Source: Tubiluchus corallicola (Eukaryota > Animalia > Priapulida). Taken from it: a stretch of DNA of 64,000 nucleotides. The position numbers and the translations under genes were made by a program. Under the pieces are notes generated by a model. That model searched no databases. It was not told the origin of the DNA and saw nothing but the letters and a program-made list of their open reading frames with translations. Where the stretch lies: positions 186,001 through 250,000 of the forward strand of contig JAQGDQ010000212.1 in the NCBI GenBank assembly GCA_030141605.1. The letters are read 5' to 3'. Shown here piece by piece: positions 18,136 through 62,097 of the stretch (its first letter is position 1; every line of letters starts with the position of its first letter).

Positions 18136-18245
18136 CTGTTATACATGAGTACGTCTGGCCTCCATATTTTATCAGGCGGAATACGTATTGTAGTGATGTT
18201 ACCGTATTCTGATGGTTCCCAGTGTAAATTCTGATCCGTCCACGC
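18136..18245 (-). CDS. CHRNA7: nAChR alpha7-like exon 4 ([37 protein letters not shown])
   Basis: 110 nt, gtAG/GTaaaa boundaries, loop [10 protein letters not shown]. Confidence 0.95.
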
Positions 18246-19319: not shown

Positions 19320-20145
19320 CATTAGCAGCCAATAACTTGTCATTATTTTTACGGACATGACAGTGCGACAAACAAGCCTACAGTCAATAGCGTGTCATTT
19401 TACAAATATGACAGTGCGACGAACAAGCCTACAGCTAATTGCGTGTAATTTTACAAACATGACAGTGCGACGAACAAGCCTACAGCTAATTGCGTGTAAT
19501 TTTACAAATATGACAGTGCGACGAACAAGCCTACAGCCAATTGCGTGTCATTTTAGAAACATGACAGTGCGACAAACAAGCCTACAGCCAATTGCGTGTA
19601 ATTTTACAAACATGACAGTGCGACAAACAAGCCTACAGCCAATTGCGTGTAATTTTACAAATATGACAGTGCGACGAACAAGCCTACAGCCAATTGCGTG
19701 TGATTTTACAAATATGACAGTGCGACAAACAAGCTTACAGCCAATAGTGTGTCATTTTACAAATATGACAGTGCGACAAACAAGCCTACAGCCAATTGCA
19801 TGTGATTTTATAAACATGACAGTATGACGTACTAATCTATAGCCACCAGGGTATTCTTTGACAAGCGCAGTGCCTCAAGCATAAACAAGCTTTTATCCAA
19901 TGAGGTTTTATTTAACAAATACAGCACATACAACATACAATTGCAGCCAATCAGGTCTCACTTCACAAACAAAAATTTTCCAAAAACAAACTGCAGCCAG
20001 TAGGGATTCACTTTACAAAAACAGCAATCCAACACAAATCAGGAGCCAATAAGGGTTCTGTTTACCAGCCCCTTGCGTGTAAAACATACAAGACACCAGC
20101 CAATAAGGTTTCGTTTTACAAACATCACAAGCGTTGTATACTTAC
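19320..20145. repeat. 51-bp minisatellite (about 10 conserved copies to 19830, then degenerate up to exon 3b)
   Basis: Unit ATGACAGTGCGACAAACAAGCCTACAGCCAATTGCGTGTAATTTTACAAAC; AGCCAA recurs about every 50-55 nt up to 20157. Confidence 0.88.
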
Positions 20146-20190
20146 GACATCTAGCCAAACATTTGTCGATATTATCTGGTTCTTCTCATC
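20146..20190 (-). CDS. CHRNA7: nAChR alpha7-like alternative exon 3b (DEKNQIISTNVWLDV)
   Basis: 45 nt, aactAG/GTaagt boundaries, phase 0/0, paralogous to exon 3a, loop D tryptophan retained. Confidence 0.9.
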
Positions 20191-21063
20191 CTAGTTAAAA
20201 CACAAGTGAAGAGTTAGAGGAAAATATAAGTGAGTATTGGTTAGTTGTGACAGCGGAAAACAAGAAAGAGAGAGAGAGAGAGAGAACGAAATAAGAAAGC
20301 GAAAGAAAAAGAGAATGAGAGTTTTAATTCGTGCACTTTTCAACGTGGACAGGCTGGAACAAGCTTTTTGAGTAGAGCATGATAACAAAAGCGAAATCGC
20401 AAACATTTTGCTGAGCTGTTCATTTGCAACAGAATCAGTGTTATGAGGAAGATTTCTGCTCTTAGTTTCGTGAATAAAACCTCTTCGCTATGATTGATTT
20501 CGTATTTCAATCAAAATCCTTTCAGCGTTGTACAATTGCATGATTTCTTGCGAATATCAAAGTAATTAACTGGAATTTTTGCTTTCGAACTTGCACAAAA
20601 CCACAAAAACAGAATATTTGTGCAAATTCTTTCTGATGTTATTGAATACGCATAAAAATAATCTTTTCTAAAGTTACTATGTTGTAATACTGAATCAGTG
20701 TTCACACTAGCAAGTCCGTATCTCTAGAAAGCAGAAACAACAAAACAGTTCTTTGCAGGACTGTTTTTAAGGATACGGCAAAACAACAGTGTGAACGAGC
20801 TTTAGGGGATATGTAAAAAGACATTTCATTCCCAAGACAAAGACCGTCGCCCTTGTAAATGAATGTTTACGGTCAAGGAAAAATATATAATTTCAACACA
20901 AAATGCCAGTTTGGGTAACGGCAACTTAAAGCATTTTCTTTTGTAAATGAAAACCCAATGTTAATACGTGGACGGTTACGAAAAAAAACACTTGATTTCG
21001 CTTTTGTTTTCAAGCTCAGCATCACGTGATCTCTTCATTGTGACGTCATATTTGGCTACTCAC

Positions 21064-21108
21064 CAAATTTAACCAAATATTTGTCGCCATATTTTGATTC
21101 TTTTCGTC
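21064..21108 (-). CDS. CHRNA7: nAChR alpha7-like alternative exon 3a (DEKNQNMATNIWLNL)
   Basis: 45 nt, caacAG/GTgagt boundaries, phase 0/0, loop D. Confidence 0.92.
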
Positions 21109-21566
21109 CTGTTGAAGAGAATAATTGAGTAAAAGAAAAAACAGTAATTTTTTGTAAGAAAGAATCTTTTGTAAGTGCATATGTACATAAATTTCTCGTT
21201 TAACGATGCTCCGCTTAGTGACATTTCGTTTTAACGACACTAATTCTTGACACATTTTTTCACTTAATGTCATATGTTTCACTTAAAAGAATTTATAGTT
21301 TTTCTCTTGCAGCATAATTGAACATTTTTACGCCAACAATTATTGATTTTTGCTCCCTGAATGCAACTGAATGCTCTTACAATATTTCTTATCGAAGAAT
21401 TGTTTTGTTTAGCGACCCCGTTTCACTTTACGATGAGTTTTGCTGGAATATATACGATACTGAGTGAGGATTTATTGCATGCAATTTTAATGATGTTTTT
21501 GAATTAACTACACTTTATTTACTGTGCCAAGAAAAACACAGTAACGATACAATGCTTTATACAAAT

Positions 21567-25333: not shown

Positions 25334-25473
25334 CACGTCTATAATCTGCTGTAGAGTTATTCCAAAGTTGACTACCACAGGATCGCTCTCGTTTAGAACT
25401 GGTCGCTCTAGAACTTCATAGTCTTTCATTATCCTTCTGATCAGACGTCTGGCATCACGACTTTGATATGTAA
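25334..25473 (-). CDS. CHRNA7: nAChR alpha7-like exon 2 (TYQSRDARRLIRRIMKDYEVLERPVLNESDPVVVNFGITLQQIIDV)
   Basis: 140 nt, ttcAG/GTatga boundaries, phase 1/0, N-terminal helix and LERPV motif. Confidence 0.95.
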
Positions 25474-25639
25474 CTGAAATTAAAAAAAACAAAATCAGTA
25501 TGCAGGAAGTAAGTCAGTGAGTGAGTGAGCAAGTCAGGTCGACGTTAGTCCAGCCAGCGGGCGCAGTATTCAAAATACACGTAACTACTTAATGAGGATG
25601 ATTGTGAAGGAAAGGCTTCTGAGAAGAGACAAGGTAGAA

Positions 25640-29960: not shown

Positions 29961-30090
29961 AGGTGAGACGCATACACGCATATATTGAGTTACGGTGATA
30001 CGGAAAGACAACGTCACACAAGTACAGTAGTTATTACTGCTATACACAGTTATATATACAGTTATAAGTGCAAGGCAGCAAAGGGACAAT

Positions 30091-31014
30091 ATGGCGAATG
30101 CGAAACACGAGGAGACAATTGAAATGTACGGGGCAGGACCTCAGAGTGACGCAGAAGAAGGTATTGGTTGCTGTGGGTTGATCATAACTGGATTGTCCTA
30201 CTTGTTCATCCTTATCACGTTTCCAATTTCCATCTGGTTCTGTTTCAAGATGGTACAGGAGTACGAAAGAGCCGTCATTTTCCGATTGGGGCGCCTGCTT
30301 CCGGGAGGCGCCAAGGGTCCGGGATTGTTCTTCATAGTACCGTGCACTGATGAGTTTGTCAGGGTGGACTTGAGGACAGTCTCTTTCGACGTGCCACCGC
30401 AGGAGATATTGTCCAAAGATTCCGTAACCATTGCAGTTGATGCTGTTGTCTACTACCGGATCAAGAATCCAACTATATCCATTGTGAATGTCAATGATGC
30501 TGACCGGTCCACACGTCTTTTGGCACAGACGACATTGAGGAACGTCCTGGGAACGAAGAATATGTCAGAGTTATTGTCAGATAGAGAGCACATCAGTTCG
30601 ACAATGCAAAGTATCTTGGACGAGGCAACCGATCCCTGGGGTATCTTGGTCGAAAGAGTCGAAATCAAAGACGTGAAGTTGCCCATGCAGCTACAGCGTG
30701 CCATGGCTGCAGAGGCAGAAGCAGCAAGAGAAGCCAGAGCCAAGGTCATTGCGGCTGAAGGTGAACAACGGGCTTCGAGAGCTCTGAAAGAAGCTGCTGA
30801 CGTCATCGCCTCGTCACCGGCAGCCCTACAGCTGCGCTACCTGCAGACGCTTAACACGATCTCTGCTGAGAAGAATTCCACTATTGTATTTCCCATACCT
30901 ATTGAAATGATGAGGATGTACAACAATCCGTCCGGTGGTGGAGAAACGAGGCGGGAGAAAATTCCATGGAAGGAGCAAGAAGCAGCAACAGCTCCAATTG
31001 GATCAGATTTGTAG
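30091..31014 (+). CDS. STOM: Stomatin / band 7 (MEC-2-like) SPFH-domain protein, 307 aa, intronless
   Basis: Hydrophobic hairpin with conserved proline (ITFPISIW), VQEYERAVIFRLGRL, VDLRTVSFDVPPQEILSKDSVT, QRAMAAEAEAAREARAKVIAAEGE, ALQLRYLQTL; a single uninterrupted ORF with ATG and TAG. Confidence 0.97.
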   Translation: MANAKHEETIEMYGAGPQSDAEEGIGCCGLIITGLSYLFILITFPISIWFCFKMVQEYERAVIFRLGRLLPGGAKGPGLFFIVPCTDEFVRVDLRTVSFDVPPQEILSKDSVTIAVDAVVYYRIKNPTISIVNVNDADRSTRLLAQTTLRNVLGTKNMSELLSDREHISSTMQSILDEATDPWGILVERVEIKDVKLPMQLQRAMAAEAEAAREARAKVIAAEGEQRASRALKEAADVIASSPAALQLRYLQTLNTISAEKNSTIVFPIPIEMMRMYNNPSGGGETRREKIPWKEQEAATAPIGSDL

Positions 31015-31027
31015 AAGGTCCCTGCTA

Positions 31028-31831
31028 CGCCCATTTCACACTGAAAACGCAAGAGAAGTGACGCGCGGAATTGCTGTTAGAAAAACAGCAAATTTTAAAA
31101 AATCCGCTTTTTTTCGCAAAAACTGGTGCAGCAAGAAATTTCATTTCACACAGAAACCGCGTTGCTTTTTACGCACGACCAGCTAGCTCCTAGTTACTCG
31201 GGTCGCAAGCTTGTGGCTGTTAATCGCCATCATGGACATGGGAAGTGGTCCTGACAAACCACTGGCATAGCAGTGTTTAGTTTTTTTGCTGGGCTACTGC
31301 TGCGTTTAACCTGTCTTGAGGGCAAATTTCTACCTGCCCGATGTCTACAATAAACGTAGTGAGCATATGATGATGATGATAATGATGATGATGACAGCTA
31401 GAATGACGCAACGTTTTTACTGAGCGCTTATTATTAATTATTACGCCTTTATTAATTACCGTCGTTATTTGGCGCACCAAATTAACGAGTCAAAACAGCA
31501 CCTCGTAACGTTGTATGGCTAGTTAAGAGACTCAAAACTTATAATTTTATGCTGAATTAAGTTAATTGCTGCTTGGCGAACAAGAAAGAGGTAACTGAAC
31601 AGTTAAACCTTAACGTAAAATCCGCGAGGAATTCTCGCTAAAATAGAACATGCGGTATTTAGCGGGCGCTTTGTCTCACGAGGAGGACGCATAGCTGGCG
31701 GTGGAGGGCCTCACCAGGGATTCTAGAGGAAAAATCTTCTTGAGGCGTCTGTATGAAGTACGCCCTAGATTGCAACTTGAGAAAATACCGCCAGGATGTT
31801 TTTGCCGCGCGTCCTCAGTGTGAAATGGGCC
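31028..31831. mobile_element. Harbinger-like MITE of about 800 bp inserted 13 nt after the stomatin stop codon
   Basis: TIR CGCCCATTTCACACTGAAAACGC / GCGTCCTCAGTGTGAAATGGGCC; flanks CTA and TAA. Confidence 0.75.
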
Positions 31832-58760: not shown

Positions 58761-58944
58761 AATATCTCAGTCATTCATAGTATACATCCATCCAGCCATA
58801 AATAAAACCTCTAGAGCTGTGTTGCTCACCCATTCAAATGCTGACCATCCTTGGTGTCGCTTGACTTCAGGAACTAAATTAAGCATACCATAACGCTGGT
58901 TATCAGGCAATTGTTGTTTTTTTCTAATTTCGTTAGAAAATTGA

Positions 58945-59383
58945 AGGAAAACAGGATGATTTTTCATATACAACCCCATTTTGGAGTACAAAAAAGAACA
59001 CGTTTTGATACAATTAATACTGCAAAAGCTTTCTGATGCCAAACAAAGCTTTATGATGACATCACAAACTAGCATAACTCTCAACAGCAAAAATATTCCA
59101 TCGGTGCTTGCAAAAGCGAAAATTGTGTGTAGTTCGTTACAAACTAACACATCTGACTTGAGAGGTAGAGCACCCGTTATTTGTGCAACGCGTTTGCGAA
59201 ATGTAGACGCTAATGCCCATCTAACTAGCAAATGGCGAAAAGCATGTAACAGCGAATGTGAAATTGTGTTCGTGTGGTAATAATTCTTTCACGTAATACA
59301 TTTTTGAGAAATGGTATGTTTCCTTTCAATATTTTAGGGTAGATTTGCTGGAGTTATAGTTTAAGATTGGGTCCAGTTTTTCA
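58945..59383 (-). mobile_element. Family A DNA transposon copy
   Basis: Near-identical reverse complement of 61579-62022. Confidence 0.8.
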
Positions 59384-61578: not shown

Positions 61579-62022
61579 AGCAAAAACGGGAGCCAATCTT
61601 AAATGTAGATCAAAACAATCTACACTTTAAAATACTGAAAGGAAACACTACTTTTTCAAAATTGACTTACGTGAAAGAATTATTACCACACAAACACAAT
61701 TTCACATTCGCGCCACTAGTTCTTCGCTGTTACATGCTTTTCGCCATTCGCTAGTTAGATGGGCATTAGCGTCTGCATTTCGCAAACGCGTTGCACAAAT
61801 AACGGGTGCTCTACCTATCAAGTCAGATGTGTTAGTTTGTGACAAACTACACACAATTTTCGCTTTTGCAAACACCGATGGAATATTTTTGCTGTTGAGA
61901 GTTATGCTAGTTTGTGATGTCATCAATTGTTTGGCATCAGAAAGCTTTTGCAGTATTAATTGTATCAAAACTTGTTTGTACTCCAAAATGGGGTTGTATA
62001 TGAAAAATCATCCTGTTTTCCT
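61579..62022 (+). mobile_element. Family A DNA transposon copy
   Basis: TTAA|AGCAAAAACGGGA ... TCCTGTTTTCCT; homologous to 2386-2988. Confidence 0.8.
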
Positions 62023-62097
62023 TCAATTTTCTAACGAAATTAAAAAACAACAACAATGGTGTGATAACCAGCGTTGTGGTATGTTTATGTTAGCTAA

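What the first reader, a model, noticed from the sequence alone, without database searches (positions are those of the whole stretch)
20375..21017. Long-range 24-nt complementary pair inside the 3a-3b intron: candidate RNA-structure splicing switch
Seen: the pre-mRNA element GAGCUUGAAAACAAAAGCGAAAUC (21017-20994, 46 nt after the 3a donor) pairs at 22/24 positions, with a perfect 15-bp core, with GAUUUCGCUUUUGUUAUCAUGCUC (20398-20375). This would loop out about 600 of the 873 intron nt. An overlapping alternative 9-bp pairing exists (21021-21013 with 20409-20417). Neither arm looks like a transposon end. Established: intronic base-pairing controls mutually exclusive exons in Dscam, 14-3-3 and Mhc. 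Inference: the stem brings the 3a donor close to the 3b branch region and enforces or biases exon choice.
Basis: partly seen in the sequence, partly recalled or inferred. Interest (0 to 1): 0.8.

Follow-up and report, generated by a model that had tools for sequence, protein, structure and literature searches.

The report
RNA bridge between duplicated receptor exons
An invertebrate nicotinic acetylcholine receptor gene has two copies of a small ligand-binding exon, and the intron between them holds a real 24-letter self-complementary pair that is predicted to fold into a bridge and may bias how often the first copy is used, though it cannot force an either-or choice and could be a harmless by-product of a repeat-rich genome.

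Summary
Observation confirmed: arms at 21017-20994 and 20398-20375 pair at 22/24 with a 15-bp core, inside the 873-nt intron between duplicated 45-nt exons 3a/3b of a minus-strand alpha7/alpha6-type nAChR gene. Shuffles rarely match it (0/1000 reach 22/24). The arms look single-copy, but this genome holds three other equally long inverted repeats within 46 kb, about 6% per intron of this size. The proposed switch is not supported. The 9-bp alternative has probability 0.00. No flanking intron offers a comparably stable partner, so it is not Dscam-type. The stem loops out no exon, and donor-to-branch distance stays about 180 nt, too long for steric exclusion. Best reading (0.45): an FGFR2-like RNA bridge that raises 3a inclusion, alone or joined to 3b as in ticks. 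Rival (0.40): neutral inverted repeat. Polymorphism is inconclusive: no variant in the core (P=0.29), one breaks the outer helix. Two arthropod 3a-3b introns carry similarly placed stems (p 0.013-0.037, post hoc). No orthologous intron or RNA reads were available. The scan had not noted this feature on other DNA.

The parts
25334..25474 (-). exon 2 of an alpha7/alpha6-type nAChR subunit gene (5' edge approximate by 1-2 nt)
   Evidence: matches relative's protein P0001
21064..21108 (-). exon 3a, 45 nt, DEKNQNMATNIWLNL; AG/GT intact; use in mRNA not shown
   Evidence: only variant seen in the exon is synonymous (21106)
21048..21080 (-). predicted 11-bp hairpin whose loop holds the 3a donor (P 0.3-0.5); not specific, other donors of the gene fold similarly
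20994..21017 (-). arm A (5' arm), starts at +47 from the 3a donor
20587..20629 (-). 13-bp hairpin inside the loop with a compensatory C-G to G-C change (20620/20596) and a G-C to G-U change (20587) in the second haplotype
20409..20417 (-). 9-nt alternative partner of arm A's 5' end; predicted not to form
   Evidence: P 0.00
20375..20398 (-). arm B (3' arm), ends 184 nt upstream of the 3b acceptor
20240..20245 (-). ACUAAC, candidate branch point of 3b (inferred from consensus)
20146..20190 (-). exon 3b, 45 nt, DEKNQIISTNVWLDV; the same peptide is joined to exons 2 and 4 in a relative's protein
   Evidence: P0001, from a 1663-nt Logan contig
18136..18245 (-). exon 4, 110 nt

Best explanation
The two arms lie wholly inside the intron between duplicated exons 3a and 3b and are predicted to form a stable stem that likely acts as an RNA bridge raising inclusion of exon 3a, not as an either-or switch. 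Shown: arms, exons, distances, lack of a comparable competing partner. Predicted: the stem forms with P near 1 and cuts the intron from 873 to about 230 nt of effective length. Inferred: this places sequence just upstream of the 3b branch point next to the 3a donor, so 3a is recognised more often, either alone (as the FGFR2 IAS2/ISAR stem does for exon IIIb) or spliced to 3b (the double-inclusion form seen in tick and silkworm alpha6). Exclusivity, if it exists, would need protein factors. The outcome would tune loop D (Asn in 3a, Asp in 3b at the alpha7 Q79 position) or the share of non-functional 3a+3b subunits.
For: Stem far above shuffle level and dominant in the fold. Arms at single-copy depth (X2 135-194 against up to 65,924 in neighbouring repeats), with no other window match and no target-site duplication, whereas the 3 comparable inverted repeats are palindromic or dispersed elements. 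0 of 30 variants fall in the 30 core nt; one variant in sample X3 (20399) would add a pair next to the core (sequence). Both independent arthropod-like tandem pairs with a long enough intron carry a stem whose 5' arm lies at +45..+86 from the first donor (L046, L025; p 0.03-0.04 each), against 6 of 63 other exon-3 rows (Fisher p 0.013). The L046 core pairs have P 0.97-1.0, and its arms are unchanged in L081. Precedent: PMC2471395 and bioRxiv 2025.08.16.670673 (passages). Double inclusion is real in Ixodes (PMC13578988) and Bombyx (PMC1919356) (passages).
Against: No orthologous intron, so no covariation on the stem. The core's lack of variants is not significant (expected 1.2, P=0.29), and a second haplotype breaks a P=0.99 pair in the outer helix (20378). 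Genomic background is about 6% per intron of this size. The two strongest stems in the 67-row survey lie after exons with no duplicate seen (L023, L076). The search window (+10..+120) was chosen after seeing the stems. Counting the partial pair L090 as a miss gives p 0.037; of five further 3a-like exons with short flanks only L108 passed 0.05. The L046 stem has a loop under 80 nt, so its geometry differs. No Fox-type GCAUG near the arms. In Drosophila Rdl exon 3, deleting the element predicted to form the RNA structures changed nothing (PMC13762713 section 2.1).
Confidence: 0.45

Rival explanations
1. The pair is a neutral inverted repeat (decayed small mobile element or template-switch product). 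It may fold but does not affect splicing; 3a/3b choice is set by splice-site strength and RNA-binding proteins.
For: Three other inverted repeats of equal size within 1 kb in 46 kb. An outer-helix pair is broken in one haplotype; 8 of 24 SNVs break predicted pairs in this intron. The target-site test is weak: it also found nothing for two of the repeat-type elements. Rdl exon 3 is governed by short protein-binding elements (PMC13762713).
Against: Single-copy depth and no other window match; position 46 nt from the donor of a duplicated exon; similar stems in two other tandem pairs.
Confidence: 0.4
2. One reading: the stem is a switch (competing with the 9-bp pairing or a distant selector) that enforces mutual exclusion by bringing the 3a donor too close to the 3b branch point.
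For: The 9-bp alternative exists; a few weak helices could shorten the distance further.
Against: Alternative P=0.00; no comparable partner in flanking introns; about 180 nt remain against a 60-nt threshold.
Confidence: 0.07
3. The stem delivers the 7-nt anti-donor CUACUCA (20375-20369, directly behind arm B) onto the 3a donor and so represses 3a.
For: Perfect complement of donor +2..+8 adjoining arm B; the haplotype change at 20373 would keep a G-U pair (read off the sequence); L046 has an 11-nt anti-donor behind its stem.
Against: P=0.00 in the ensemble and 6.4 kcal/mol less stable than the local hairpin state; donor complementarity is not significant in the window (p 0.46) or L046 (p 0.10); in L046 the donor prefers pairing with the exon.
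Confidence: 0.08

Closest known systems
FGFR2 IAS2/ISAR stem (exons IIIb/IIIc)
   Same: One stem between intronic elements that activates the upstream duplicated exon and represses the downstream one (PMC2471395 passage); conserved from sea urchin to human (bioRxiv 2025.08.16.670673 passage). That both arms lie between the two exons is recalled, not read.
   Different: No GCAUG/Fox site near the arms here; conservation and function untested; double inclusion here stays in frame (45 nt).
RNA bridges of SCN9A exon 5a/5b, ENAH 11a, SF1, ATE1
   Same: Intronic pairing that changes isoform ratio without itself causing exclusivity (bioRxiv 2025.08.16.670673, PMC10790352; passages).
   Different: Those have a known protein partner or compensatory-mutant proof.
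Docking-selector pairing of Dscam, 14-3-3zeta, Mhc
   Same: Long-range intronic pairing near tandem duplicated exons.
   Different: Needs one docking site with two or more competing selectors and loops out exons (PMC6071210 passages); neither holds here.
Arthropod nAChR alpha6/alpha7 exons 3a/3b
   Same: Same 45-nt loop-D exon duplicated in tandem (PMC1919356, PMC5111602, PMC13578988; passages). Tandem copies also appear in gene models of ticks and Priapulus caudatus (P0135, P0136, P0134). Tuta's 3a-3b intron is 899 bp.
   Different: The gene lies outside the arthropod rows of my tree, nearest Priapulus (68% identity; no non-ecdysozoan rows, so placement is open). No intronic stem is described for these exons in what I read. 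Whether the duplication is shared or independent is unresolved.

Membership tests
Docking-selector competing pairing (Dscam/14-3-3zeta/Mhc) | One site complementary to two or more competing selectors | tested here: not met
   no comparable second partner for either arm between exons 2 and 4; 9-bp alternative P=0.00
Docking-selector competing pairing (Dscam/14-3-3zeta/Mhc) | Pairing loops out an alternative exon | tested here: not met
   both arms lie inside the 3a-3b intron
Steric exclusion of tandem exons | Donor-to-branch distance under about 60 nt | tested here: not met
   about 180 nt with the stem formed; threshold from PMC13762713; branch point is a prediction
FGFR2-type RNA bridge | Single stable stem in the intron between duplicated exons, 5' arm near the upstream donor | tested here: met
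   (predicted fold only)
FGFR2-type RNA bridge | Conservation with compensatory changes | tested here: inconclusive
   only within-species variants: core 0 variants (P=0.29), outer helix one break; no orthologous intron found
FGFR2-type RNA bridge | Fox-type GCAUG element beside the 3' arm | tested here: not met
   no GCAUG in 20050-21200; other factors not excluded
FGFR2-type RNA bridge | Disruption changes exon ratio and compensation rescues it | not testable with these tools
   needs a minigene
MITE or other element with terminal inverted repeats | Multiple copies | tested here: not met
   single-copy depth; no other window match; whole genome not held
MITE or other element with terminal inverted repeats | Target-site duplication | tested here: inconclusive
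   none found, but none either for two repeat-type controls
Duplicated nAChR exon 3a/3b | Two tandem 45-nt exon-3 copies with intact splice sites and the loop D Trp | tested here: met
Duplicated nAChR exon 3a/3b | Both copies used, one at a time | tested here: inconclusive
   3b-only product in a relative (P0001); no 3a product found; no RNA run laid

The most novel reading that the evidence does not exclude
Across ecdysozoans, the intron between nAChR alpha6/alpha7 exons 3a and 3b carries an RNA bridge conserved in position but not in sequence. It sets the balance between single inclusion and the in-frame, non-functional 3a+3b form, and so acts as a structural dial on receptor amount and loop D pharmacology in the spinosad target gene family.
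Probability: 0.15. Interest if true: 0.7.

Novelty: new member of a known kind. Interest (0 to 1): 0.33.

Why it matters
How nAChR exon 3 choice is controlled is open. Skipping it causes spinosad resistance in Tuta absoluta with no cis mutation found (PMC5111602), and the 3a+3b form is non-functional in Ixodes (PMC13578988). The exon carries loop D, where Q79 of alpha7 sets neonicotinoid sensitivity (PMC10906874 passage); here 3a has Asn and 3b Asp at that position (alignment). A verified stem would give a first structural cis-element for this exon pair, and it is cheap to test. The mechanism class itself is known, and the evidence for function is thin.

Tried and rejected
Whole genome: none held. 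Sequencing runs: no RNA holder listed; X6 laid 0 contigs and X5 none on the intron, which is no evidence either way. Orthologous intron: the exon-3 pattern gave 120 metagenome loci, none carrying the window's exons (the scan covered 11 of 64 parts), 0 in genome contigs, 0 in viral contigs. Full contigs for L080 and L089 were not held. A protein carrying 3a: I saw none in the three homolog searches; I printed exon-3 peptides for the 120 hits and 25 selected proteins, not for the 12 hits, whose best identity was 65%. Rfam: only a chance snR76 hit below threshold. 9-bp switch, anti-donor pairing, steric exclusion and docking-selector: rejected. Donor hairpins as a 3a/3b-specific feature: rejected, exons 5 and 9 show them too. 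Covariation in the two arthropod-like pairs: L046/L081 arms identical, L012/L025 identical throughout, so uninformative. One search's Fisher tests used 7/63 by a miscount; one search has the correct 6/63. Placing the animal: the tree had only arthropods and one priapulid. Literature: searches listed no paper whose title or abstract reports an intronic stem between nAChR exons 3a and 3b. Raker 2009 has no nAChR mention in main text or 4 supplement files, one file not searched. Subscription papers are not covered.

Full report
Gene context. The window is repeat-rich animal DNA (17,940 of 64,000 nt masked by TRF). [quoted passage not shown] An unnamed Logan protein, P0001, is 91-100% identical over most exons. 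Its best solved relatives are alpha7 chains. The best named hit is Priapulus caudatus (68% overall; arthropods 56-63%). In my 18-row tree it falls outside the arthropod rows, but no other phyla were included, so the animal is not placed. Exon 3 is present twice, 3a (21108-21064) and 3b (20190-20146), 45 nt each, 32/45 nt identical. P0001 carries 3b alone between exons 2 and 4. Use of 3a is not shown. Its unusual Asn at position 6 also occurs in an annotated mite protein (P0168), and the only variant seen in the exon is synonymous.

The observation. The arms pair at 22 of 24 positions with a 15-bp core, and the core has P 0.89-1.00 in the intron fold. One of 1000 dinucleotide shuffles reached a 15-bp core and none reached 22/24. 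The genome is a harsher control: 4 inverted repeats with a core of at least 15 bp and a loop up to 1 kb lie in 46,060 unmasked nt, so about 5.7% of 873-nt stretches would hold one. The other three are palindromic or dispersed elements; the candidate matches only itself in the window and has no target-site duplication, though that test was also blank for two of the controls. Contig depth over the arms is single-copy.

What it is not. The 9-bp alternative has P=0.00 (-16.0 against -31.8 kcal/mol). In 690 windows from exon 2 to exon 4 neither arm has a comparable partner. Docking-selector systems are defined by competing selectors and looped-out exons (PMC6071210, passages), so this is not one. 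With the stem formed, 46 nt separate donor and arm A, and 134 nt separate arm B and the ACUAAC branch candidate. That is about three times the 60-nt steric threshold used in PMC13762713 (section 2.1). I also tested a 7-nt anti-donor directly behind arm B; it is not populated.

Polymorphism. Three runs of one heterozygous sample and one run of a second sample show 24 SNVs and 6 indels in 737 nt of the intron (for X1). None is in the 30 core nt (1.2 expected, P=0.29). One (20378, seen in X2) breaks a pair of the outer 4-bp helix; one (20399, X3) would extend the core by a pair. Of the 24 SNVs, 11 are at weakly paired sites, 8 break predicted pairs, 3 keep them, and 2 form one compensatory pair in an inner 13-bp hairpin (chance about 0.057 x 1/3). 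Template switching could also produce that pair (own knowledge). Logan contigs drop some variants. The result is inconclusive.

Other animals. A metagenome scan with an exon-3 pattern gave 120 loci. Tandem copies were seen in L046, in L081+L080 (one contig; peptides match termite alpha7 proteins), in L025, and in L090+L089 (one contig). I scored the best duplex between +10..+120 and +120..+1000 for 67 rows with at least 620 nt downstream; 10 had p of 0.05 or less. The window's 3a (z=6), L046's first exon and L025's first exon (L012 is a duplicate of it) all passed, against 6 of 63 other rows. Leaving out the window, Fisher p is 0.013, or 0.037 if the partial L090 counts as a miss. The window was chosen after seeing these stems, the L046 loop is under 80 nt, the two strongest stems follow exons with no duplicate seen, and further 3a-like exons with short flanks were mixed. 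This is a lead, not a result. The window's 3a is closer to the arthropod first exons (34-35/45) than to second exons (30-32/45), which hints at shared ancestry, but residue 11 (Ile then Val) follows the order of the Priapulus model P0134 instead; homology is unresolved.

Mechanism. A stem wholly inside an intron can bring splice sites or regulatory elements together (PMC10790352, passages). The closest case is FGFR2, where the IAS2/ISAR stem activates the upstream duplicated exon and represses the downstream one with Fox proteins (PMC2471395, passage). In SCN9A a similar bridge shifts the ratio without loss of exclusivity (bioRxiv 2025.08.16.670673, passages). No GCAUG lies near the arms here. 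Exon 3 is a multiple of three, so double inclusion stays in frame. It is documented in silkworm (PMC1919356, passages) and in Ixodes, where only 3b and 3a+3b forms were found and the latter is non-functional (PMC13578988, passages). I commit to a bridge that raises 3a inclusion, alone or joined to 3b (0.45), over a neutral repeat (0.40), anti-donor repression (0.08) and the enforced switch (0.07). A caution from the same superfamily: in Drosophila Rdl exon 3 a predicted structure element proved dispensable.

Novelty. The exon pair and the mechanism class are known. I found no report of a stem between nAChR exons 3a and 3b (listings; Raker 2009 main text and 4 supplement files). Papers seen: passages of PMC1919356, PMC5111602, PMC10790352, PMC2724269, PMC2471395, PMC6071210, PMC7404189, PMC13578988, PMC10906874 and bioRxiv 2025.08.16.670673; abstract and section 2.1 of PMC13762713; abstract of PMC13512814. 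The primary FGFR2 papers were seen only as reference entries. Earlier scan notes held nothing on this locus or sequence and two notes on other duplicated nAChR exons. Verdict: real sequence feature, function unproven, interest 0.33.

Noticed in passing
window 20629-20617 / 20599-20587 (-): 13-bp hairpin inside the loop shows a compensatory C-G to G-C change plus a G-C to G-U change between the two haplotypes; selection on structure or template switching.
   Followed up: partly
window 22605-22509, 22275-22221 and 20285-20268 (-): A (GA)n tract in intron 2 can pair with a (UC)n tract upstream of 3a (part of a 355-nt palindrome, -282 kcal/mol) or with one upstream of the 3b branch point (-44 kcal/mol). 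This is docking-selector geometry, but the local palindrome should dominate and such repeats are common here.
   Followed up: partly
window 12736-12619 (-): The last 19 nt of exon 8 plus a GT occur three times in tandem (ends 12718, 12667, 12619); the later copies read in frame and could be alternative donors lengthening the M2-M3 loop. P0001 uses the first.
   Followed up: no
window 30031-31014 (+): Single-ORF, intronless stomatin/Band 7 gene (PF01145) on the opposite strand about 4.5 kb upstream of exon 2; possibly a retrocopy nested in intron 1, since exon 1 was not found in the window.
   Followed up: partly
window 31029-31044 / 31815-31830: 16-bp inverted repeat 770 nt apart just behind the stomatin stop; interior matches elsewhere in the window; ends resemble Harbinger-type termini (recalled).
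   Followed up: no
P0134 (Priapulus caudatus model); P0135, P0136, P0177 (ticks): Gene models with two tandem exon-3 copies, so the duplication occurs in a priapulid as well as arthropods.
   Followed up: partly
L046:1546-2288, L081/L080, L025:4405-6472, L090/L089: Tandem exon-3 pairs; those of L046 match termite alpha7 rather than alpha6 proteins, so the duplication is not limited to alpha6.
   Followed up: partly
window 58925-59328 / 61636-62042: Long, highly identical inverted duplication about 2.3-3 kb apart, probably a mobile element.
   Followed up: no
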